From an uncultured Clostridia bacterium (GTDB lineage Bacteria > Bacillota > Clostridia > Christensenellales > CAG-314), in NCBI GenBank assembly GCA_947625725.1, contig CANQPI010000009.1, positions 194 through 64,193 on the forward strand: a stretch of DNA of 64,000 nucleotides, in the 5' to 3' direction. Shown one piece after another: positions 10,034 to 42,746 of this stretch. Both the position numbers and the translations under genes were made by a program. Under the pieces are notes generated by a model that ran no database searches, had not been told where the DNA came from, and saw only the letters and a list, made by a program, of their open reading frames with translations. Position 1 is the first letter of the stretch. Each line of letters starts with the position of its first letter.

Positions 10034-10570
10034 ATGAACATTTGGCATGATATTGCGCGTAGCAGAATAAATGCCGACGACTTTTACGCCGTCATAGAGA
10101 TCACCAAGGGCAGCAAAATGAAATACGAACTTGACAAGGAAACGGGCTTGTTGGTTTTGGACAGGATATTGTACACGTCAACTCACTATCCCGCAAACTA
10201 CGGTTTTATTCCCCGCACGCTTGCCGACGACGGCGACCCTATGGACGTGTTGGTGCTTTGCTCCGAGCCTTTGCTTGCGCGTAGTCTTGTGCGTTGCTAT
10301 CCTATCGGCGTGATAATCATGAACGACAACGGCTCTTGTGACGAAAAAATTATCGCTATACCCTTTACCGATCCCAATTACAACGGTTACAAATCCATTT
10401 CCGATTTGCCCAAGCACATTTTTGACGAAATGCAACACTTTTTCCGCGTGTACAAGGAGTTGGAAAACAAGCCGACCTCCGTATCGGAAGTACACGACGT
10501 CGAGGACGCCAAACGCATAGTGCAAAAGTCCATTGACGATTACATTGCGCAAATTTTGTCCAAGAGATAG
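10034..10570 (+). CDS. ppa: inorganic pyrophosphatase (family I)
   Basis: MNIWHDI...YAVIEITKGSKMKYELDKETG...YPANYGFIP.TL.DDGDP.DVLVL. RBS AAGGAGG precedes the ATG at 10034. Confidence 0.93.
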   Translation: MNIWHDIARSRINADDFYAVIEITKGSKMKYELDKETGLLVLDRILYTSTHYPANYGFIPRTLADDGDPMDVLVLCSEPLLARSLVRCYPIGVIIMNDNGSCDEKIIAIPFTDPNYNGYKSISDLPKHIFDEMQHFFRVYKELENKPTSVSEVHDVEDAKRIVQKSIDDYIAQILSKR

Positions 10571-10610
10571 TTCGCGCTCGGGCATTGCCCGAAAAAAGGC
10601 TTCGCTTCAA

Positions 10611-10660
10611 ACGCCACACATTTAGTAGGGGAACAAAATCCACTTGTGTGGCGTTTTCGT
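10611..10660 (+). terminator. terminator-like hairpin ACGCCACACA...TGTGTGGCGT + TTTTCGTT (module M1)
   Basis: 10-bp stem plus an inner stem, followed by a T-rich tract. It is the first structure after ppa. The same element recurs at about 11065, 11249, 41139 and 41590. Confidence 0.6.
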
Positions 10661-10945
10661 TGCAGATTATTTTTCGGGCAACACCCTCGCGCCCCTGTGA
10701 ACAATGTCGGAACTCTGATTAGAACTTTTTGTTTTGAAATAAAGTTTGCAACTGTTACAACAAAATAATGCTTTCCATTATAATGGGAAACAATTTCGGC
10801 GACTGCATTAAAAGCCTTCTCTTGGGGACGCAAGAGAAGGGGGACCGTCGTCAGACGGTGGATGAGTTTCGACTGTCAAAGCCGACTAAATATTACAATC
10901 TTTGCCTCTTTGGTTTATTCGAAAAAACATTTTTTTGCAAACGTA

Positions 10946-11012: not shown

Positions 11013-11286
11013 GACCAAATATAATTGACTCTCGGGCATTGCCCGAAAAAAGGCTTCGCTTCAAACGCCACACATTTAGTAGGGGAACAAAATCCACTTG
11101 TGTGGCGTTTTCGTTGCAGATTATATAGGTATTCGGGTATTCCGTGTCAAACGGCTTCGCACAGCACTTCGGGTGCTTGCACACAAAACGGCTTCACATA
11201 GTGCCTCGGGCATTGCTCGAAAAAAGGCTTCACTTCAAACGCCACACATTTAGTGAGAGAACACAACTCACTTGTGTGGCGTTTTC

Positions 11287-11570
11287 GTTGCAGATTATTT
11301 TTCGAGCAACACCCTCGGCACTTCCTAGAAGCAAGGATAGTGTTTGTTGCAGATTGTTTTGTAGTGCAACACCCTCAGTGCCCCTTTTACAAGGGCAGGT
11401 GTGTTGCAGATTATATAGGTATTCGGGTATTCCGTGTCAAATGGCTTCGTTTCGGGCTACGCCCTCGTTGCAGATTGTTTGTCACGAAACACCCTCATAC
11501 CTTGCTGGAACAAGGTTGAGTTTGCAACACCCTCGCGCCCCTGTGAACAATGTCGGAACTCTGATTGGAC
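11287..11570 (+). repeat. array of four 55-64-nt sub-repeats (GTTGCAGATT..GCAAC-ACCCTC + variable hairpin)
   Basis: GTTGCAGATT starts at 11287, 11346, 11403 and 11467, giving units of 59, 57, 64 and 55 nt. The array ends in the CACCCTCGCGCCCCTGTGAACAATGTCGGAAC module. Confidence 0.7.
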
Positions 11571-11970
11571 ATCTTGTTTCGAGATAATATTGGTAGCGAA
11601 TGAATTGCTTGCCCTTTGAAAGGATGAAGTGGTATTCGCGTTGTATCAAAACATTGCTTTCCACTATAATGGGAAACGCTGTTTTTCTTTTGCACTCACT
11701 AATTACCGGGTCGGAACTCTGATTAGAACGGTTTGTTTTGAAATAAAGTTTGCAACCGACAAATAATTTCCCCCGTCGAAACACTCGGTGGTACTCGCTA
11801 TTTCGCTAAAACGGTGCTTTCCATTATAATGGGAAGCAAAGTCGGCAACGAAGAAGTAACTTCCTCGGCGGCAATGCGCGCGGTGTTTTTGTTCCGTCCC
11901 GACAAAATTTCGCCCCAAACTTCGCCCGAAACGATTTTTACAATTTGCGCGCAAAATAGCCATCTCCGTA

Positions 11971-11999
11971 TTGACTTGCGCGTAGATTTACTATATACT
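11971..11999 (+). promoter_or_regulatory. sigma-A-type promoter for the DUF2974 operon (TTGACT-17-TATACT)
   Basis: Read directly, ~50 nt upstream of the ATG at 12051. Confidence 0.5.
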
Positions 12000-12050
12000 T
12001 GTGGCATATAGTGATCTATGAGATTGCTACGTAAATTGTGGGGTAAAGTT

Positions 12051-13148
12051 ATGAACATCACATCGTACGTAAAGAAAAATCGCGAAACTTTTGCCGACGC
12101 CCCGTTCAACGAGGTGGACAGTCTTGTTCTGTGCGAACTTTCATATCTTCATTACACTCGGGCGTTTGCGGGCGCGCCGCGCAAAACTCTCCGCGACATG
12201 GCAAAGGACGTCAAAACTCACAACAAAGACACCCTTTTGCCGCTGGAAAACATCGGCTTGCTCAAAGCGATCGCAAACAGCCCCCGTTTTGCCGACGTAA
12301 AGGTGGGGTACTTCCGCGAGCGCAACAGCGTCAAGCGCGAAACGCGTTTTGCCGCAATGACCTTCGAACTCGCGCCCGATCTTCACTATGTGGCGTTTCG
12401 TGGCACGGACATCACTCTGTTGGGGTGGAAAGAGGACTTCAACATGGCGATCGTCAAGGCGATCCCCTCTCAAAAGTTGGCGTTGCAATATTTGCAGACC
12501 GTTGCGTCCAAAGTGGACGGCGACCTGATTTTGGGCGGGCACAGCAAGGGCGGCAATCTGGTGGTGTATGCGGGAGTGTACGCCTCGCCCGAGTTGCAGG
12601 ACAGGTTGCTCGCAATATACGACCATGACGGTCCGGGCTTTCGCACGAACATTTTCGGCGATTCCAAATATCTGCGCGTTGCCGACAAGATACGCAAAAC
12701 CGTTCCGCACGATTCCATTATCGGCATGTTGCTCAACGTCATGGAACGCTACGAGGTGGTGGAGAGCAACAGTTTTTCCGTCATGCAACACAACCCGTTC
12801 AGTTGGCAGATAGAGGACAATCATTTCAAAAAACTCCCCGAAACGGCGCGCACGTCCGTTGCAATGGAACAGACCCTTACTACTTGGATATCCGGTTTGG
12901 ATCGCAAAACCACCCAAAAACTTACAAACGCGATATTCGCCGTGTTGTTCGGCAGCGGCGCGACGACCGTTCCGCAACTGCTTCGCCGTCCTATCGGGCG
13001 TTTACGCAACATGAAGCGGGCTTTTGACGCGCTGGACGACGAGAGCAAGTCGTTGCTCACGGGCAACGGCAAATATTTGATGTCTTTGTGGTTTGCCTCG
13101 ATGAAACACGTGTACGGCATAGTCGCGCCCGAGGTCGATCCGCAATGA
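12051..13148 (+). CDS. DUF2974 (Mbeg1-like) alpha/beta-hydrolase-fold protein, paralog 1
   Basis: MNITSYVKKNRETFADAPFNEVDSLVLCELSYL... with GGHSKGGNL (GxSxG), HDGPGF and VPHDSIIG. The family assignment is from memory. I prefer the ATG at 12051 over the track start at 12018. Confidence 0.78.
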   Translation: MNITSYVKKNRETFADAPFNEVDSLVLCELSYLHYTRAFAGAPRKTLRDMAKDVKTHNKDTLLPLENIGLLKAIANSPRFADVKVGYFRERNSVKRETRFAAMTFELAPDLHYVAFRGTDITLLGWKEDFNMAIVKAIPSQKLALQYLQTVASKVDGDLILGGHSKGGNLVVYAGVYASPELQDRLLAIYDHDGPGFRTNIFGDSKYLRVADKIRKTVPHDSIIGMLLNVMERYEVVESNSFSVMQHNPFSWQIEDNHFKKLPETARTSVAMEQTLTTWISGLDRKTTQKLTNAIFAVLFGSGATTVPQLLRRPIGRLRNMKRAFDALDDESKSLLTGNGKYLMSLWFASMKHVYGIVAPEVDPQ

Positions 13149-14239
13149 ATATCGTAGACTATGTCAAAAAGAACAAAGCCTCCTTTGCCGACAGCCCTCT
13201 CAACGAGGTGGACGGGTTGGTTTTTGCCGAACTCGCCTACTTGAATTTCGGCAGGAGAGCCTCGGGCATGCCCACAAAAACGTTGGGCGAGTTTTCCTCG
13301 AAACCCGACGTCCTTGTAGAGGGAACGCTCTCGTTGTTGAGAAAAAACAACCTGCGTCTGCTCAAAGCGATTGCCGCAAGTCCGCGCTTTGCCCCCGTCG
13401 AGGCGGGGTTTTTCAGAGTGCGCAACAGCGACGAAAAAGACGTGCGTTTTGCCGCAGTCACCTTTCGGATAGGTCAAGGGAAGTATCACGTTTCTTTTCG
13501 CGGGACGGGCGTTTCGCTTGTCGGTTGGCGGGAAAATTTCAAAATGGCTCTTTTGTCCGTTATTCCCACGCAAAGGCTCGCGCTTCGTTACCTCGTTGAC
13601 GTTGCGTCGCGCACGGAGGGCGATTTGACGGTGGGCGGATTGAGCAAAGGGGGAAATTTGTCCGTGTTTTCCGTCACGAACGCCCCCGCGGAAGTCAAAT
13701 CTCGCATACGGTCCGTTTTCAATTACGACGGACCGGGTTTCAAGTTGAGTATTTTCGACGATCCGCGTTACATCGAGATCTCTCCCCGCATACACAAACT
13801 CGTGCCGCACGACTCCATTGTGGGAATGTTGCTCACGTCCTCGCAGGTGTACGACGTGGTGGACAGCAACGGCATTTCCGTCAAACAGCACGATCCCTTT
13901 ACCTGGCAAGTCAAGGACTGCGAAAATTTCAAAAAACTGCCCCAAACTACTCGCAGATCGCAAGTTACCGACGCGGCGGTCACGGAATGGCTGGCGGGAT
14001 TGGACGAGCGCACCCGTCGCAAATTCGTCTACGCCGTTTTTTCCATTGTGGAAGGCAGCGGCGCAAAAGAGGTCGGGGACTTGTTGCGCAAACCCTTGCG
14101 CAAAATACGTCTTATGAAAAAGTCCTACGAACAGTTGGACGCGCCGAGCAAGGAGTTGATCTCGCGAGGCGGCAAGCAACTGCTCTCAATGTGGTTGGGC
14201 GAACTGTTCGCTTTTTCCAAAAAGAAAGCCGAGCAGTGA
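13145..14239 (+). CDS. DUF2974 (Mbeg1-like) alpha/beta-hydrolase-fold protein, paralog 2
   Basis: MNIVDYVKKNKASFADSPLNEVDGLVFAELAYL... with GGLSKGGNL, YDGPGF and VPHDSIVG. The start overlaps the stop of paralog 1 (ATGA). Confidence 0.78.
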   Translation: MNIVDYVKKNKASFADSPLNEVDGLVFAELAYLNFGRRASGMPTKTLGEFSSKPDVLVEGTLSLLRKNNLRLLKAIAASPRFAPVEAGFFRVRNSDEKDVRFAAVTFRIGQGKYHVSFRGTGVSLVGWRENFKMALLSVIPTQRLALRYLVDVASRTEGDLTVGGLSKGGNLSVFSVTNAPAEVKSRIRSVFNYDGPGFKLSIFDDPRYIEISPRIHKLVPHDSIVGMLLTSSQVYDVVDSNGISVKQHDPFTWQVKDCENFKKLPQTTRRSQVTDAAVTEWLAGLDERTRRKFVYAVFSIVEGSGAKEVGDLLRKPLRKIRLMKKSYEQLDAPSKELISRGGKQLLSMWLGELFAFSKKKAEQ

Positions 14240-18423: not shown

Positions 18424-19623
18424 ATGAAAAACGTACTTGACGTGCTGAGAGAGCGCGGATACATCAAACAAACCGTATTCGAGGACGAACTGTACCAAAT
18501 GTTGGGCAACGAGAGCGTGACCTTTTACAACGGTTACGATCCGACTGCGGACAGTCTGACCGCGGGACACTTTGTTACCTTGATGGCAATGGCGCACATG
18601 CAGCGTGCGGGACACACGCCCATCATCTTGATAGGCGGCGGTACCGCAATGGTGGGAGATCCCTCCGGACGGACGGATATGCGCCGGATGATGAGCAAGG
18701 AAACCATCTCGCACAACGTGGAGTGCTTCAAAAAGCAAATGAGCCGTTTTATCGACGTGGACAAAGCAATTTTCGTCAACAACGCCGATTGGTTGTGCGA
18801 TTTGAACTATATCGACTTTTTGCGGGAGATAGGCACGTGCTTTTCCGTCAATCAGATGCTGACGGCGGAGTGTTTCAAACAACGCTTGGAACGCGGATTG
18901 AGTTTTCTCGAATTCAACTACATGCTGATGCAGGGCTACGACTTTTTGGTGCTTAACCGCAAGTACGGTTGCGTGCTTCAAACGGGCGGCGACGACCAGT
19001 GGAGCAACATGTTGGCGGGCGCGGACCTCATACGCCGCAAAGAGGGTAAAAAGGCTTTTGCGTTGACCTATACCTTGCTTACCACATCCGACGGCAAGAA
19101 AATGGGCAAAACGGCAAAGGGCGCGGTTTGGTTGGACGCCGACAAGACAAGCCCCTACGATTTCTTTCAATATTGGCGCAACGTCGAGGACGACAGGGTG
19201 GAAACCTGCCTCAAATTGCTTACTTTTGTCGATTTGGAGGAAATTGCCGAACTCACCGCGTATCGCGACGAGCGCATGAACGCCGCCAAGGAACGCCTTG
19301 CCTACGAAGTTACCTCTATCGTACACGGCAAGGACGTAGCGGACGAAGTACTAAAACAGGTGCGCGCCTCTTTCAGCGCGGACGTGGACAACATGCCCGC
19401 CGTGCATATAACCGAGCCGGGCAACATAATTGACATTTTGGTAAAGTGCGGACAGTGCAAGTCCAACGGCGAAGCGCGCAGACTTGTGGAGGGCGGCGGC
19501 GTGTCCGTTGACAACGACAAAATTTCTTCTCCCGCCTGGACGTTGCCCCGACAAGTCATCGCAAAGGGCGAATTTGTGCTTCATCGCGGCAAAAAAGTCC
19601 ATTTGCGCGTGATAATCGAATGA
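18424..19623 (+). CDS. tyrS: tyrosine--tRNA ligase
   Basis: YNGYDPTADSLTAGHFV (HIGH-like), KMGKT (KMSKS-like) and a C-terminal S4-like domain. Confidence 0.95.
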   Translation: MKNVLDVLRERGYIKQTVFEDELYQMLGNESVTFYNGYDPTADSLTAGHFVTLMAMAHMQRAGHTPIILIGGGTAMVGDPSGRTDMRRMMSKETISHNVECFKKQMSRFIDVDKAIFVNNADWLCDLNYIDFLREIGTCFSVNQMLTAECFKQRLERGLSFLEFNYMLMQGYDFLVLNRKYGCVLQTGGDDQWSNMLAGADLIRRKEGKKAFALTYTLLTTSDGKKMGKTAKGAVWLDADKTSPYDFFQYWRNVEDDRVETCLKLLTFVDLEEIAELTAYRDERMNAAKERLAYEVTSIVHGKDVADEVLKQVRASFSADVDNMPAVHITEPGNIIDILVKCGQCKSNGEARRLVEGGGVSVDNDKISSPAWTLPRQVIAKGEFVLHRGKKVHLRVIIE

Positions 19624-20237
19624 AAGACTATATCACAATTCAAACGGAAGAACGCACGGCTGAGTACGTGACGGAGAGATCCCGATTTATCGCCGCGGCG
19701 ATCCACGTCGATACGGTGGAAGAAGCCGCGCGCTTTGTCGAGGCGAAACGCAAAAAATACTTTGACGCCACGCACAATTGCTACGCCTACATAGCGGGCA
19801 ACAAAGCCAAATTCAGCGACGACGGCGAGCCGCAGGGAACGGCGGGCATGCCTATCTACGAATGTATCCGTCAAAACGACCTCGATTTTACCTGCGTGGT
19901 GGTGACGCGCTATTTCGGCGGCATAAAGTTGGGCACGGGCGGTCTGACGAGAGCCTACTCGACGGCGTGTTCGGACGCCCTCAAATTGTGCGACAGACTG
20001 CGCGTAACGGACTGTATCCTCGCGCAAATAGAGGTGGACTACTCCATGCTCAAAACGTTGCGCAACGCGTTGCGGGATCGCGCGCGGGAGCAGGCGGCGT
20101 TTTTTGAGGACAAAGTGCGTTTACTATATCTGTTTCCTACGGATTTATCAACTACTATTGCAGACATAGTATCTCAAAATACGCTAGGGAAGGGCGTTTT
20201 TGAGATTTTGGAACACAAATCCACGGTGTGGAACTAA
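19620..20237 (+). CDS. yigZ: YigZ / IMPACT family protein
   Basis: ERSRFIA......A.....K..Y.DATHNCYAY......FSDDGEP.GTAG.PI; ATGA overlap with tyrS. Confidence 0.85.
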   Translation: MKDYITIQTEERTAEYVTERSRFIAAAIHVDTVEEAARFVEAKRKKYFDATHNCYAYIAGNKAKFSDDGEPQGTAGMPIYECIRQNDLDFTCVVVTRYFGGIKLGTGGLTRAYSTACSDALKLCDRLRVTDCILAQIEVDYSMLKTLRNALRDRAREQAAFFEDKVRLLYLFPTDLSTTIADIVSQNTLGKGVFEILEHKSTVWN

Positions 20238-39122: not shown

Positions 39123-40805
39123 ATGGCTGCTGCTCATACAATCAAAACTCACATCACGCCTTCCGTGATGAAACGCATGTTTATCGCCGGCGGAAAAATG
39201 CTGGAAGTAAACAAAGCGCAAGTAGACGCACTGAACGTCTTTCCCGTTCCCGACGGCGACACGGGAACAAATATGTCTTTGACAATGATGTCCGCCGTCA
39301 AGGAGATCAATTCCGCAAACAGCACGTCTATGTCGGAACTTGCGGAAAAACTCAGCAAAGGCGCGCTTCGCGGTGCGCGCGGCAATTCGGGCGTAATACT
39401 TTCTCAAATTCTCAAAGGTTTTTCAAATATCATAACTCAAAACGACGAGTGCGACGCGCGCACTTTTGCCAAAGGACTGCGCGAGGGCGCGGAACTTGCA
39501 TATCGCGCGGTATCCAAACCCAAGGAAGGCACGATCTTGACGGTCGTTCGTTCCATGGCGGAGGAGGCGATCGACACCGCCAAGCGCAGCGGCGACATTC
39601 AAAAGTTGCTGAACGCTGTGTTGGAAAAGGGCGAAGAAACCCTTGCCAAAACTCCCGATATGTTGGACGTGCTCAAACGCGCGGGCGTGGTGGACAGCGG
39701 CGGTTACGGACTTATCACCCTGTTCAAAGGGTTGATAATGGGCTACCTCGACCAGGAGATCACGGGCGCGGAGGAGTACGCCGAGCCTGAAAGCAACAAC
39801 AAACCCGTATCTATCGATTCGGCTTTCCCCGACGACAGCGAACTCGTAGTGGACTACGAATCTTTGGGCGAGTTGGATTTCGGCTACTGCACGGAGTTTT
39901 TCATCACCAACATAAAAAAGCGCACAACGGTTACGGATATTGACAAATTGAGAGAGTATCTCAACGAGATAGGCAACTCCGTTATATGTATCGGCGACCT
40001 CAATTTGGTAAAGGTGCATGTACATACAAACAACCCCGGCAAAGCGCTCACCAAGGCGCTCACCCTCGGCGAGTTGGACAAGATAAAGATCGAAAACATG
40101 ATGGAGCAAAACAGAAAGTTGCGCGCCCGTTACGAAGCGGAACGCAAGCCTATCGGTTTGCTTGCAGTGTGTTCGGGCGACGGTTTCGCCGCGATTTTCA
40201 AGGATCTTCTCGTCGATCAGGTGATAGAGGGCGGTCAGACAATGAACCCCTCCGCCGAGGACATAGCCTCCGCCGCGCGCAAAATCAACGCGGAAAATAT
40301 CATAATTTTGCCTAACAACAAAAATATCATTTTGTCCGCAGAGCAATCGAGAACGTTGGTGCAAAACCGCAACATCTTTGTGTTGCAAACAAAGGATATT
40401 CCGCAGGGACTTGCGGCGGTACTCAATTTCAGTCCCGACCTCAGCCTGTCCGAAAACCTCGAAAATATGACCGCGGGCTTTGTGGATATCGACGCGGGAC
40501 AAGTTACCTACGCCGTTCGCGACACCGTGATAGACAAGTTCAAGATAAAGAAAGGCGACATTATCGGTTTGGACAAGGGCAGTATCGTCACCAGCGGCAA
40601 GGACGTAGAGGCGGTCACGACCAAGTTGATAGAAGGAATGTTGACCGAGGACAAGGAAGTGGTTACTTTGTACTACGGACAGGACGTTCCCGAAGAAAAA
40701 GCCGAGGCTTTTGCGGAAAAACTGCAAAACAAACACCCCGACATCGAATTTATTCTTCACTACGGCGGTCAACCGTTGTACTACTACGTGCTGAGCGTGG
40801 AGTAA
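39123..40805 (+). CDS. yloV: DAK2 domain fusion protein YloV
   Basis: LNVFPVPDGDTGTNM..T, RGARGNSGVILSQ, 560 aa. Confidence 0.9.
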   Translation: MAAAHTIKTHITPSVMKRMFIAGGKMLEVNKAQVDALNVFPVPDGDTGTNMSLTMMSAVKEINSANSTSMSELAEKLSKGALRGARGNSGVILSQILKGFSNIITQNDECDARTFAKGLREGAELAYRAVSKPKEGTILTVVRSMAEEAIDTAKRSGDIQKLLNAVLEKGEETLAKTPDMLDVLKRAGVVDSGGYGLITLFKGLIMGYLDQEITGAEEYAEPESNNKPVSIDSAFPDDSELVVDYESLGELDFGYCTEFFITNIKKRTTVTDIDKLREYLNEIGNSVICIGDLNLVKVHVHTNNPGKALTKALTLGELDKIKIENMMEQNRKLRARYEAERKPIGLLAVCSGDGFAAIFKDLLVDQVIEGGQTMNPSAEDIASAARKINAENIIILPNNKNIILSAEQSRTLVQNRNIFVLQTKDIPQGLAAVLNFSPDLSLSENLENMTAGFVDIDAGQVTYAVRDTVIDKFKIKKGDIIGLDKGSIVTSGKDVEAVTTKLIEGMLTEDKEVVTLYYGQDVPEEKAEAFAEKLQNKHPDIEFILHYGGQPLYYYVLSVE

Positions 40806-41018
40806 ACCGACCAGGCGCAAGTCGGTTCGGTTGATTACACAACCGACCCCTACGGGGCGCAAGTGCGCCGACTTGGTCGGACTGCTAAGGAAGTCGCTAC
40901 ACGCGCCTTCATTTTCGGGCTCCCACGCAATGCGAGTGTCACTGCGTGGGAGGAGTCGCAACCCCGCCAACCCCCGCAAGGGCTGCAATCTCGGTACACG
41001 CCCGTGATTGCAGGAGGG
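40806..41018 (+). ncRNA. candidate structured RNA: unique GC-rich multi-helix segment leading into repeat locus B
   Basis: Begins right after the yloV stop. Nested helices: CCGACCA(40807-13)/TGGTCGG(40874-80) and GTCGG(40821-25)/CCGAC(40868-72) enclose three hairpins. Further helices: CTCCCACGCA/TGCGTGGGAG (40920-52), CCC-GCAA-GGG (40973-82) and CTGCAATC/GATTGCAG (40983-41014). No ORF. Family unknown. Confidence 0.35.
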
Positions 41019-41085: not shown

Positions 41086-41472
41086 GACCAGATGCAATTG
41101 GCGCTCGGGTATCCCCTGCAAAAAGGCTTCACTTCAAACGCCACACATTTAGTGAGAGAACGCAACTCACTTGTGTGGCGTTTTTGTTGCAGATTATTTT
41201 GCAGGGGACACCCTCGCTCCCCTGTGAATAAGGTCGGAACTTTGATTGGAATTGTTTGTTTTGAAATAAAGTTTGCAACTGTTACAACAAAACAATGCTT
41301 TCCATTATAATGGGAAACATAGTTGACAACTGCATTAAAAGCCTTCTCTTGGGGACGCAAGAGAAGGGGGACCGTCGCAAGACGGTGGATGAGTTTCGAC
41401 TGTCAAAGCCGTCTAGATATTACAATTATTGCCTCTTGGGTTTATTTGATAAAACAGTTTTTTGCAGACGTG

Positions 41473-41536: not shown

Positions 41537-41773
41537 GACCAGATGCAATTGGTACTCGGGAATCCCCTGCAAAAAGGCTTCACTTCAAACGCCACACATT
41601 TAGTGAGGGAACACAACTCACTTGTGTGGCGTTTTTGTTGCAGATTATATAGGTATTCGGGTATTCCGTGTCAAACGGCTTCACACAGCACTTTGGGTGC
41701 TTGCACACAAAACGGCTTCACATAGTGCCTCGGGCATTGCTCGAAAAAAGGCTTCGCTTCGGGCTACGCCCTC

Positions 41774-41993
41774 GTTGCAGATTATTTTTCGAGCAACACC
41801 CTCGGCACTCCCTTGAAGCAAGGATAATGCTTGTTGCAGATTGTTTTGTTGTACAACACCCTCAGTGCCCCTTTTACAAGGGCAAGTGTGTTGTAGATTG
41901 TTTGTTACGAAACACCCTCATACCTCGGTGGAACAAGGTTGAGTTTGCAACACCCTTGCGCTTGTGTGAAAAAGGTCGGAACTATGATTGGAC
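41774..41993 (+). repeat. array of three 55-59-nt sub-repeats (locus B version)
   Basis: GTTGCAGATT at 41774 and 41833, GTTGTAGATT at 41890. The 64-nt third unit of locus A is absent here. Confidence 0.7.
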
Positions 41994-42341
41994 AACTTGT
42001 ACCGTAACAAGGTTGCTAACTGTGAGAGGGCTTACCCTTTGAGGACATGAAGTGGTATTTGCAACTAACAAAACAATGCTTTCCATTATAATGGGAAACA
42101 ACGTCGGCGACTGCATTAAAAGCCTTCTCTTGGGGACGCAAGAGAAGGGGGACCGTCGTCAGACGGTGGATGAGTTTCGACTGTCAAAGCCGACTAAATA
42201 TTACGATCATTGCCTCTTGCGTTTATTTGATAAAGTTGTGCAATACCCTCGCACCCGTGTGAACAAGGTCGTACATTTTTGAAACTGCGCTCGCATATCC
42301 CTCGCAAAGTTGAATTTTACATTGATTTTACATATCGGACG

Positions 42342-42746
42342 TTAAGCGTTGCCTAACTTTTTTTCCGTTTTTCTCTTTTTCGGAGCGACAAGAGCGTAAC
42401 TGTCGTCAATGAGTTGCGACAGCAACGTCATATCCACCGTACCGTCCAGCAAAACGCCTATCCAATGCAGTTTGTTGAGGTGGTAGCAGGGCACAAAACC
42501 CTTTTGGTCAAGCAACACCTCGCGTGCAAACGGGTCGCACTTGATGTCCAAAATGTCTACAACGCCCTCGCCGTCCAGCCCGAGCCTTTTACGCGGCACG
42601 TTCATGATAATGCCGTACCATTTGCGCGTGTCGGCGCGCCTCAGCACGGCGTAATTGGGGACGTCCGCCCACATGTATTCCGCCTCAGTACCGTATTGAT
42701 TTGACGCATAGTTCAGCACGTCTTGTCTTGTAGCCCCGTTTGTCAT
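42342..42746 (-). CDS. MmcQ/YjbR family DNA-binding protein
   Basis: 134 aa; ...YAVLRRADTRKWYGIIMNVPRKRLGL......VDILDIKCDP....LL...G..P.YH.NK.HWI.VLLDG. Family assignment from memory. RBS GGAG. Confidence 0.8.
   Translation of the reverse strand: MTNGATRQDVLNYASNQYGTEAEYMWADVPNYAVLRRADTRKWYGIIMNVPRKRLGLDGEGVVDILDIKCDPFAREVLLDQKGFVPCYHLNKLHWIGVLLDGTVDMTLLSQLIDDSYALVAPKKRKTEKKLGNA

What the first reader, a model, noticed from the sequence alone, without database searches (positions are those of the whole stretch)
11287..11570. Internal array of 55-64-nt sub-repeats with copy-number difference between loci
Each unit consists of GTTGCAGATT, a short variable loop, GCAAC (a GTTGC/GCAAC hairpin), single-stranded ACCCTC, and a different small hairpin. 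Examples of that last hairpin are CACTTCCT..AGGATAGTG, GCCCCTT-TTAC-AAGGGC and CCTTG-CTGGAA-CAAGG. Locus A has four units (59, 57, 64 and 55 nt). Locus B (41774-41993) has three and lacks the 64-nt unit. At first glance it looks like a CRISPR or a type III antitoxin (ToxI-like) array. However, the variable parts are conserved between the two loci and are themselves hairpins, and no cas or toxN-like gene follows. Tandem structured units with variable copy number could be repeated protein- or RNA-binding modules.
Basis: seen in the sequence. Interest (0 to 1): 0.62.

Follow-up and report, generated by a model that had tools for sequence, protein, structure and literature searches.

The report
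Nested hairpin repeats, not CRISPR
The tandem 55-64-base units are real, but they are the closing halves of hairpin repeats stacked inside one another, from a repeat family scattered about 60 times through this uncultured rabbit-gut bacterium, not a CRISPR, an antitoxin array or a string of independent binding modules.

Summary
The sequence facts hold. Five heads GTTGCAGATT/GTTGTAGATT stand 59, 57, 64 and 55-57 nt apart in locus A. Locus B is collinear and lacks exactly the 64-nt unit.

The structural reading does not hold. The "variable loop" after GTTGCAGATT is the 3' strand of a long-range stem. Its 5' strand lies upstream, just before AAA(A/C)GGCTTC. In 35 units from at least 8 species this 17-pair stem has 12 pairs with compensatory changes. 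The proposed GTTGC/GCAAC hairpin has none, and the CCC of "ACCCTC" is paired.

In both loci the 5' halves (a, b, c) are followed by the 3' halves in mirror order (c', b', a'). The "array" is therefore the closing side of concentric hairpin units. The 64-nt "extra copy" is an opening half that forms a complete local unit with the 55-nt unit.

The family fills about 62 co-oriented loci (1.6% of a 1.68-Mb genome) and lies just downstream of genes. It occurs in 12 of 25 sampled species of one genus and in none of 16 outside it. Family blocks differ between strains.

I found no Cas1, no ToxN hit, no linked gene, no repeat-flanked transposase and no Rfam match. Best reading: a lineage-specific REP/BIME/BOX-like repeat family with an unusual self-nesting architecture. 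The mobilising mechanism is unknown.

The parts
10574..10692 (+). Simple, un-nested family unit (type c2). It reads L-arm GCGCTCGGGCATTGCCCGAAAAAA, GGCTTC (10598-10603), a terminator-like apical hairpin, head GTTGCAGATT (10659-10668), then R-arm ATTTTTCGGGCAACACCCTCGCGC.
   Evidence: (arm duplex -17.7 kcal/mol).
11030..11122 (+). Outer opening half c2( of the locus A composite: L-arm, GGCTTC (11052-11057), terminator-like hairpin and head (11113-11122). Its proximal R-arm is replaced by the nested group.
   Evidence: Closure by 11524-11538 is read from the sequence and from the folds.
11123..11231 (+). Three stacked opening halves: a( with GGCTTC at 11153-11158, b( with GGCTTC at 11190-11195, and c( with GGCTTC at 11226-11231.
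   Evidence: The folds pair b(and c(with U2 and U1; the first a(is left unpaired there, and U4 pairs with the a(inside U3.
11240..11281 (+). Apical hairpin of unit c (CGCCACACA...TGTGTGGCG, followed by TTTT). It is terminator-like and is itself a repeated module.
   Evidence: (the 'hp' pattern, 5 copies in the window contig and others elsewhere).
11287..11345 (+). U1 (59 nt) = closing half )c. It reads head, then R-arm ATTTTTCGAGCAACACCCTCGGCACT, which pairs with 11200-11225, then a linker.
   Evidence: (-15.6 kcal/mol).
11346..11402 (+). U2 (57 nt) = closing half )b. It reads head, then R-arm GTTTTGTAGTGCAACACCCTCAGTGC, which pairs with about 11160-11189, then the local hairpin GCCCCTTTTACAAGGGC.
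   Evidence: (-13.7 kcal/mol).
11403..11466 (+). U3 (64 nt, absent from locus B). This is not a closing half. It consists of head + ATATAG + a second opening half a( (GGCTTC at 11443-11448) + the minimal apical hairpin TTCGGGCTACGCCCTC.
   Evidence: The same 64-nt module occurs at 6 head-to-head spacings of 64 nt in the genome.
11467..11523 (+). U4 (55-57 nt) = closing half )a. It reads head, then R-arm GTTTGTCACGAAACACCCTCATACC, then CCTTGCTGGAACAAGG. It can pair with the a( inside U3 (local complete unit) or with the a( at 11123-11152.
   Evidence: (-9.5 kcal/mol).
11524..11569 (+). Headless terminal unit. GCAACACCCTCGCGC is the distal R-arm that closes the outer c2( . It is followed by the conserved tail CCTGTGAACAATGTCGGAACTCTGATTGGA.
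   Evidence: (D9, 98% identical to 10678-10723). The path into the unique flank is supported by a 1028-nt unitig.
41649..41773 (+). Locus B opening halves a( (GGCTTC at 41677-41682), b( (41714-41719) and c( (41750-41755), plus the minimal apical hairpin 41756-41773.
41774..41961 (+). Locus B closing halves )c (41774-41832), )b (41833-41889) and )a (41890-41946, head GTTGTAGATT), then the headless distal R-arm GCAACACCCTTGCGC (41947-41961).

Best explanation
The array is the descending (3') side of concentrically nested copies of a roughly 100-130-nt hairpin repeat element. The element belongs to a genus-specific family of interspersed, non-coding repeats.

Shown. One element reads: outer stem, TC, GGG, (C/T)A, variable L-arm, A-run, GGCTTC, apical hairpin, (C)TC-GTTGCAGATT, T-run, complementary R-arm (often with one bulged T), (C/A)A, CCC, TC, outer stem. 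The 6-mer and the 10-mer never vary, while the arms co-vary freely. In the window's loci, and in others, several 5' halves are followed by their 3' halves in mirror order. So 37-nt opening halves pile up on the left, and 57-64-nt closing halves (the 'sub-repeats') pile up on the right. The 64-nt unit that distinguishes locus A is an opening half with a minimal apical hairpin. Together with the following 55-nt unit it makes one complete extra element.

Inferred. The Russian-doll order arises because new copies enter resident copies next to the invariant motifs: either between GGCTTC-RC and CTC-GTTGCAGATT, or right after GTTGCAGATT-AT. Units are also gained, lost and shuffled by recombination between the invariant 10-mers. 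The invariant motifs are recognition or cleavage sites for an enzyme not yet identified. The hairpins act mainly as DNA, probably on the strand complementary to the neighbouring gene. Effects on transcripts, such as termination or 3'-end protection, would be secondary.
For: Genome-wide family. Nearly every 20-nt bin of both gaps has 15-58 copies in the genome. There are 62 loci totalling 27.2 kb, and each locus is strictly co-oriented.

Long-range stem. It has 17 pairs, 12 of them with changes on both sides, and 90% of cells are paired. The covariation score is 0.449 against 0.160 +/- 0.011 in shuffles (0 of 500) and 0.05-0.12 when the partners are slid. The apical hairpin has 3 of 4 pairs compensatory and is 100% paired.

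Bracket matching. Pairing 5' markers with 3' markers as brackets gives a mean duplex energy of -12.5 kcal/mol, against -6.4 +/- 0.5 with shuffled partners (0 of 200).

Mirror-order grammar. Examples: C18 d(b(cc )b )d; C22 d2(b(cc )b )d2; locus B a(b(cc )b )a.

Relatives. The same nesting, with different arm sequences, is seen in another species (G010) and in G005.

Folds. The two loci fold into nested rods with z = -7.1 and -4.0 as RNA and z = -8.5 and -7.3 as DNA.

The 64-nt difference is a clean indel bounded by the 10-mer.

Strain turnover. Other rabbit samples lack a 343-nt and a 628-nt block that contain family modules, and one 143-nt unit of a sister module that is bounded by direct repeats.

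Distribution. 12 of 25 genomes of the genus have the family and 0 of 16 outside it do. There are no true copies in IMG/VR viral contigs (3 chance pattern matches), none in phage or plasmid records, and one true hit in JGI metagenomes.

DNA-level hint. G.U pairs are rare on the gene-sense strand: 11, against 25 A.C mismatches plus 17 at one conserved position. The complementary strand gives the more stable arms in 112 of 133 distinct units and in whole loci.
Against: No mobilising enzyme was found. Y1 transposase genes exist in part of the genus, but their loci share no sequence or motif with the family. IS110 is absent from the repeat-rich genomes G000 and G010.

No autonomous copy with a gene between matched arms exists in this assembly.

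No 'empty' hairpin with a GGCTTC loop was found, and no clean filled/empty pair was found for a hairpin unit itself. The 343-nt strain indel carries unique sequence as well as family sequence, and the simple-unit locus tested appears to be present in all four strains, whose contigs break at it.

Comparing nested and simple forms of unit b shows replacement of the apical segment, not a plain insertion.

Some arrays have closing halves without partners, for example C5 )a )a )a. So local duplication or deletion also operates.

The strand asymmetry rests on a few subfamily-wide positions and is not made of independent events. Recent within-genome changes include G.T on the sense strand.

The strong co-orientation with the upstream gene would fit an RNA role equally well.

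The internal order of locus A is not independently verified.
Confidence: 0.6

Rival explanations
1. The elements work as RNA. They would be structured 3'-UTR modules of the upstream gene, acting as terminators, 3'-exonuclease blocks, RNase III or other processing sites, or decoys for an RNA-binding protein that reads GGCUUC / GUUGCAGAUU. Nesting and copy number would tune stability or titration.
For: Elements start 0-160 nt after the stop codon of a same-strand gene in 28 of 32 loci that have a gene within 200 nt (29 of 32 after correcting locus A by hand). They are enriched between convergent genes. Some apical hairpins look like intrinsic terminators with flanking A and T runs. The stems show strong covariation. 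Pneumococcal BOX, RUP and SPRITE repeats are likewise biased to the 3' side of genes and are transcribed (PMC3049150).
Against: G.U pairs are scarce on the sense strand while A.C mismatches are common, and the antisense strand folds better; the opposite is expected of a sense-strand RNA. Promoter-like and terminator-like sites are not enriched over shuffles. There is no Rfam match at permissive thresholds. No RNA-seq run holding the organism could be found, so nothing shows transcription or processing. Orientation also agrees with GC skew in 31 of 40 loci, so a replication-linked bias explains it as well.
Confidence: 0.2
2. There is no insertion at all. The clusters would grow only by local tandem duplication, unequal crossing-over and gene conversion among dispersed copies that share the invariant 10-mer and 6-mer. 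The mirror order would be a by-product of duplicating long palindromic blocks.
For: The 64-nt indel is bounded by 10-nt direct repeats, and a 143-nt strain-level indel is bounded by 21-nt direct repeats. Runs of identical closing halves such as )a )a )a occur. A 628-nt indel is bounded by an 18-nt direct repeat. No transposase was found.
Against: Unequal exchange between co-oriented repeats yields tandem order, not mirror order. Outer arms of different types (a, d, d2) enclose the same inner b(c) core at different loci, and each is correctly matched to its partner. That pattern is expected from insertion or wrapping events, not from duplication. The spread to about 60 unlinked intergenic sites needs some form of transposition or horizontal copying.
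Confidence: 0.15
3. The array is a degenerate CRISPR array or a type III (ToxI-like) antitoxin array.
For: Only the appearance supports this: a roughly 30-nt conserved part alternates with 25-30-nt variable parts at a 57-64-nt period.
Against: The 'spacers' are the same few sequences in many loci. About 30 loci carry such units. There is no Cas1 in the genome and no ToxN hit (without a positive control). The flanking genes are unrelated, apart from one paralogous surface-protein family. The 'repeat' is demonstrably half of a long-range stem.
Confidence: 0.01

Closest known systems
REP / BIME clusters and REPINs of Enterobacteria and Pseudomonas (mobilised by RAYT Y1 transposases)
   Same: Both are extragenic, lie mostly 3' of genes, and are imperfect hairpins with bulges whose arms stay complementary. 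Both occur in clusters with copy number that varies between loci and strains, number in the tens to hundreds per genome, are lineage-restricted, and combine a conserved short motif with a structure.
   Different: REPs in BIMEs and REPINs alternate in orientation, whereas here every module of a locus points the same way. The units here are nested concentrically, not side by side. The invariant motifs sit in the apical region, not at the foot. No Y1 transposase gene flanked by the repeats was found. The host is a Clostridia lineage.
Pneumococcal BOX elements (boxA-boxB(n)-boxC) and SPRITE (Croucher et al. 2011, PMC3049150)
   Same: Both are modular repeats in Firmicutes with outer modules that pair with each other, a variable number of internal modules, and a bias to the 3' side of genes. 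Both occur in clusters with other repeat families, terminator-like members exist, and no convincing transposase is known.
   Different: boxB is predicted to fold largely on its own, so its number can change freely. Here each internal unit is half of a helix whose partner lies on the other side of the cluster, and the order is mirrored. There is no sequence similarity.
Neisseria intergenic mosaic elements (NIMEs: dRS3 repeats flanking recurrent RS segments)
   Same: A short conserved repeat alternates with a limited set of recurrent 'variable' segments, which gives a CRISPR-like look without cas genes. The NIME description comes from my own knowledge and from the mention in PMC3049150.
   Different: dRS3 is a 20-bp inverted repeat that serves as an integration target. 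NIMEs are not known to have long-range nested pairing between segments, and they are not related in sequence. None of this was tested here.
Integron attC sites / CALIN arrays
   Same: Both are co-oriented arrays of imperfect hairpins whose sequence varies while the structure is kept. Both have extrahelical bases, a preferred folding strand, and short conserved boxes next to the stem.
   Different: The R'' RYYYAAC / R' GTTRRRY boxes are absent: GTTGCAG does not fit GTTRRRY, read from the sequence. There are no gene cassettes between sites. Units are nested rather than serial. The integrase was not examined.

Membership tests
CRISPR array | Near-identical direct repeats separated by unique spacers | tested here: not met
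   The intervening segments are the same few sequences at many loci. The 'repeat' itself varies, and its variable part co-varies with an upstream partner.
CRISPR array | cas genes (at least cas1) in the genome or next to the array | tested here: not met
   There is no Cas1 (PF01867) match in the whole assembly, while 7 of 14 control genomes matched. The flanks are ppa / Mbeg1-like and fakA-like / YjbR. The MAG is 93% complete.
Type III toxin-antitoxin (ToxI/ToxN) | Tandem identical ~36-nt repeats directly upstream of a toxN-type endoribonuclease gene | tested here: not met
   The units differ from each other. No ORF follows in a conserved way. There is no ToxN_toxin (PF13958) hit in the genome, but the control panel also gave none, so that search alone is weak.
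REP/REPIN-RAYT system | Short extragenic imperfect palindromes in many copies | tested here: met
   About 62 loci, and arms that stay complementary through compensatory change.
REP/REPIN-RAYT system | REPs arranged as inverted pairs (REPIN) or alternating orientation (BIME) | tested here: not met
   Every locus has all of its modules on one strand.
REP/REPIN-RAYT system | A single-copy Y1 (RAYT) transposase gene flanked by the repeats | tested here: not met
   Y1_Tnp genes occur in 12 of the 25 genomes of the genus (counting G000). Four such loci have no family motif around the gene (two hold isolated one-mismatch matches to the 10-mer) and no BLAST similarity to the family. The only Y1 fragment in this genome sits at a contig end (C15:3-179) next to unrelated sequence.
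MITE (TIR-type, DDE transposase) | Conserved terminal inverted repeats matching an IS, plus target-site duplication | tested here: inconclusive
   The arms are inverted repeats, but they vary in sequence between copies, unlike transposase-binding TIRs. No clean filled/empty pair for a unit was obtained, so duplications could not be read.
BOX-like modular repeat | Outer modules pair and inner modules vary in number | tested here: met
   Grammar table; 64-nt indel between the loci.
BOX-like modular repeat | Sequence homology to boxA/B/C | not tested
   No BOX sequences were compared. The family was found only in one genus of uncultured Clostridia.
Known structured RNA family (Rfam 15) | Match to a covariance model | tested here: not met
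   The only matches at gathering score in the window are two tRNAs. Nothing credible appeared at E up to 10 in the two gaps.

The most novel reading that the evidence does not exclude
This would be a new kind of structure-specific mobile DNA. A small hairpin element carries two invariant recognition motifs (GGCTTC and GTTGCAGATT) in its apical region and preferentially inserts into that same region of resident copies, building Russian-doll stacks. It would be moved by an enzyme that is not a repeat-flanked RAYT or an IS110, and would act on single-stranded DNA of the strand opposite to the neighbouring gene, a strand choice comparable to attC bottom strands in chromosomal integrons.
Probability: 0.15. 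Interest if true: 0.75.

Novelty: new variant of a known kind. Interest (0 to 1): 0.45.

Why it matters
Small interspersed repeats are well studied in Proteobacteria and streptococci but hardly at all in uncultured gut Clostridia. This family takes 1.6% of a 1.68-Mb genome, breaks short-read assemblies (many loci sit at contig ends) and differs between strains.

Its architecture is the unusual part: strictly co-oriented units, concentrically nested, with two invariant motifs and freely co-varying arms. None of the repeat families I compared it with has this design. It points to a structure-specific enzyme that is still to be found.

In practice, the result warns that CRISPR-like periodic arrays can be the closing halves of nested palindromes. 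It also gives a simple bracket grammar for recognising such arrays.

Tried and rejected
- Rfam at gathering score over the whole window, and at E up to 10 over both gaps: nothing but two tRNAs.
- Tandem Repeats Finder does not report the array, because the units are too dissimilar.
- CRISPR and ToxI readings: rejected.
- Conserved neighbouring gene: none. The only recurrent flank is a paralogous family of large surface proteins.
- RAYT/IS200 link: Y1 genes exist in the genus, but they share nothing with the repeats.
- IS110: not correlated with the repeats.
- Autonomous element with a gene between matched arms: none. The few distant matches are separate loci of the same type.
- 'Empty' target hairpin with a GGCTTC loop: none.
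- Copies on phages, plasmids or IMG/VR contigs: none; the three pattern hits are chance.
- JGI metagenome scan: one true member only.
- RNA evidence: no RNA run could be listed.
- Unit number at locus A in other strains: the public contigs break at every repeat, so it cannot be read.
- Orthologous fakA-yjbR gap in related species: 200-900 nt, without the locus B cluster (a few isolated family motifs lie elsewhere in those loci); at about 80% DNA identity no exact junction can be read.
- Promoter and terminator scan: not enriched.
- Group II intron or ribozyme idea for the neighbouring cloverleaf module: no support.

Full report
**What is at the coordinates.** The finding lies in a 1.45-kb ORF-free gap between an inorganic pyrophosphatase gene (10034-10570, +) and an Mbeg1-like gene (12018-13148, +). 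Locus B lies in a 1.5-kb gap between a fakA-like gene (39123-40805, +) and a YjbR-family gene (42342-42746, -). The 10-mer GTTGCAGATT occurs 10 times in the window, always on the + strand and only in these two gaps, against 0.17 expected. In locus A the heads at 11287, 11346, 11403 and 11467 delimit units of 59, 57 and 64 nt. A 55-57-nt unit and a headless terminal unit from 11524 follow. Locus B aligns collinearly and lacks exactly the 64-nt unit; the gap is bounded on both sides by the 10-mer. The sequence observation is therefore correct.

**It is not a local curiosity.** The window is part of a 66.8-kb contig of a 1.68-Mb, 39-contig MAG (93% complete) of an uncultured Clostridia bacterium. 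Its closest relatives are rabbit-gut ('Lapin') MAGs, and Candidatus Fimimonas is more distant. BLAST of the two gaps against the genome shows that almost every 20-nt bin has 15-58 copies. Merged, the hits make 62 loci and 27.2 kb, or 1.6% of the genome. Many loci sit at contig ends, and within every locus all modules lie on one strand. Units with the 10-mer head occur at about 30 loci, with head-to-head spacings of 57 nt (14 times), 59 nt (7 times), 64 nt (6 times) and a few of 94-116 nt.

**The structure is not the one proposed.** Reading the copies side by side showed something different. I aligned 35 distinct simple units from this genome and from at least seven other species of the genus. 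GGCTTC, GTTGCAGATT and the A and T runs are invariant, and everything between varies.
- On this alignment the long-range helix has 17 pairs. Twelve have changes on both sides, and 90% of cells are paired. The covariation score is 0.449, against 0.160 +/- 0.011 in shuffles (0 of 500) and 0.05-0.12 when the partners are slid.
- The small apical hairpin between the two motifs is 100% paired, with compensatory changes in 3 of 4 pairs.
- The helix includes GGG/CCC, so the CCC of 'ACCCTC' is paired, not exposed.
It remains possible only as a weak competing pairing.
- The tail hairpins have no covariation support.

**Why the units look like a tandem array.** I treated each AAA(A/C)GGCTTC as an opening bracket and each GTTGCAGATT as a closing bracket, and matched them like parentheses. 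Across the 62 loci this gave 72 pairs with a mean arm duplex energy of -12.5 kcal/mol, against -6.4 +/- 0.5 when partners are shuffled (0 of 200). Six arm types recur (a, b, c, c2, d, d2), and the closings mirror the openings:
- C18: d( b( c( )c )b )d
- C22: d2( b( c( )c )b )d2
- C11: a( b( )b )a
- Locus B: d( )d d( |L a( b( c( )c )b )a
- Locus A: c2( )c2 c2( |L a( b( c( )c )b |L a( )a

Here '|L' is a head followed at once by the L-arm of a new 'a' unit. Their partners lie at 11123-11231 in locus A and at 41649-41755 in locus B. U3, the 64-nt unit, is an opening half plus a minimal apical hairpin. It gives U4 a second, local partner. After )a comes the distal part of the R-arm of the outermost unit, which closes the whole block. 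Folding programs recover these nested rods for both loci, as RNA (z = -7.1 and -4.0) and as DNA (z = -8.5 and -7.3). Nesting with matched arms of quite different sequence is also present in other species (G010, G005), where the closing halves are about 90-100 nt long.

**Distribution and dynamics.** The family was found in 12 of 25 genomes of the genus and in none of 16 genomes of other families of the order. It is absent from phage and plasmid collections and from IMG/VR, and it has one true member in the JGI metagenome contigs. In metagenomes of other rabbits that hold the same species at 95-99% identity, long contigs skip a 343-nt block and a 628-nt block containing family modules. Both blocks begin right after an intrinsic-terminator-like hairpin of the neighbouring gene. 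One strain also lacks a 143-nt unit of a sister module, bounded by a 21-nt direct repeat. So family blocks are gained or lost between strains, and unit-sized changes bounded by direct repeats do occur. At locus A itself the public contigs break at every repeat, so unit number in other strains cannot be read. In the likely source sample no unitig spans the U2/U3 junction, so the order inside locus A depends on the original assembly.

**Position and strand.**
- With crude ORF calls, the element has the orientation of the gene that ends just upstream in 28 of 32 loci with a gene within 200 nt. This becomes 29 of 32 after correcting locus A by hand. Convergent gaps are over-represented and divergent ones depleted.
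- Orientation also agrees with GC skew in 31 of 40 loci, so transcription and replication cannot be separated.
- On the gene-sense strand the stems hold few G.T/G.U pairs (11). They hold more A.C mismatches: 25, plus 17 at one conserved position that otherwise reads A-T or G-C.
- Accordingly the complementary strand gives the more stable arms in 112 of 133 distinct units, with means of -31.6 and -27.1 kcal/mol. It is also more stable for whole loci: -182.5 against -170.5 and -134.9 against -124.3 kcal/mol as RNA, and -96.5 against -91.3 kcal/mol as DNA.
- The units are not independent events, so this is a hint and not proof. It argues against a sense-strand RNA as the selected form, and for a DNA hairpin on the other strand.
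- A bulged T in the R-arm recurs in several arm types.

**What it is not.**
- No Cas1 in the genome.
- No ToxN hit, although that search had no positive control.
- No conserved flanking gene, apart from a paralogous surface-protein family beside four loci.
- No Rfam family.
- No enrichment of promoter-like or terminator-like sites.

**Search for a mobilising function.**
- Y1 transposase genes occur in 12 of the 25 genomes of the genus (counting G000), more often in repeat-rich ones. Their loci share no motif and no BLAST similarity with the family, and the single fragment in this genome sits at a contig end.
- IS110 is absent from this genome and from repeat-rich G010.
- No copy with a gene between matched arms exists, and no 'empty' hairpin with a GGCTTC loop was found.

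**Most likely mechanism.** Shown: the unit anatomy, the covariation, the mirror-order nesting, the genome-wide spread, the strain-level turnover, and the nature of the 64-nt difference. Inferred: new copies enter resident copies next to the invariant motifs. Two junction types recur, one between GGCTTC-RC and CTC-GTTGCAGATT and one right after GTTGCAGATT-AT. Recombination between the invariant 10-mers then adds, removes and shuffles halves. An unidentified enzyme would read the two motifs on a DNA hairpin. Unequal exchange alone explains the indels but not the mirror order with correctly matched outer arms of different types around the same inner core. An RNA role in 3' UTRs remains a live rival, because of the position bias and because no transcript data exist.

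**Comparison with known systems.** In kind this is closest to REP/BIME/REPIN clusters and to the modular BOX elements of streptococci. In BOX, outer modules pair and the number of inner boxB modules varies (PMC3049150). It differs from these in three ways: strict co-orientation; concentric nesting, in which each inner 'repeat' is half of a helix spanning the cluster; and invariant apical motifs combined with variable arms. It fails the RAYT-linkage test. It resembles attC arrays in being a co-oriented series of variable hairpins with extrahelical bases and a preferred strand, but it lacks their boxes and cassettes.

**Verdict.** The structural description and the 'independent binding modules' idea are not supported. 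The array is the closing side of nested hairpin repeats of a lineage-specific family. I rate it a new variant of a known kind and moderately interesting, mainly for its self-nesting architecture and the missing enzyme.

Noticed in passing
window 40806-41010, with about 20 copies elsewhere (e.g. G000 C22:9619-9805, C22:28186-28662): A sister module of the same repeat family begins with a cloverleaf-like four-way junction (CCGACCA..GTCGG / three hairpins / CCGACTTGGTCGG). It ends in CTGCAATC-hairpin-GATTGCAG, where the 'head' motif is base-paired. The 3' end of this module resembles the apical region of the hairpin units, so the units may derive from it. There is no Rfam match.
   Followed up: partly
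L135 (G000 C22:9000-28900) 533-875 and 19018-19645: Strains in other rabbit samples lack a 343-nt block and a 628-nt block that contain family modules. Both blocks begin in or next to the T-run of an intrinsic-terminator-like hairpin of the upstream gene. The larger block is bounded by an 18-nt direct repeat, CGACTTGCGTTTGGTCGG.
   Followed up: partly
window 10775-10795, 11660-11680, 11820-11840, 41300-41320, 42080-42100; L135 15769-15911: The palindrome TTTCCA(T/C)TATAATGGGAA, which contains a perfect -10 hexamer, ends another repeated module. One strain has one copy fewer of a 143-nt unit bounded by this palindrome.
   Followed up: partly
all hairpin units of the family (own genome and relatives): The strand complementary to the neighbouring gene folds better in 112 of 133 distinct units. 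One stem position is A.C in half of the copies and A-T or G-C in the rest. This is the pattern of a wobble pair read on the other strand.
   Followed up: yes
window 11905-11932: A 12-nt tandem repeat (AAACTTCGCCCC, 2.3 copies) lies upstream of the Mbeg1-like gene and is one unit shorter in all four other rabbit samples. It is a small VNTR near that gene's promoter region (TTGACT-17-TATACT at 11971-11999).
   Followed up: no
G000 C15:3-179: A fragment of an IS200/IS605-type Y1 transposase gene sits at a contig end. Intact copies are multi-copy in several relatives. It is unrelated in sequence to the repeat family.
   Followed up: partly
G000 C12:15505, C13:16, C20:32961, C30:15421 (ORF starts): Four paralogous large secreted or lipoprotein-like proteins (590-880 aa, with Cys-rich N-termini and repeated beta-rich domains) each have a repeat cluster next to their 3' end.
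   Followed up: no
window 12018-14239: Two tandem Mbeg1-like (DUF2974) paralogs lie directly downstream of locus A.
   Followed up: no
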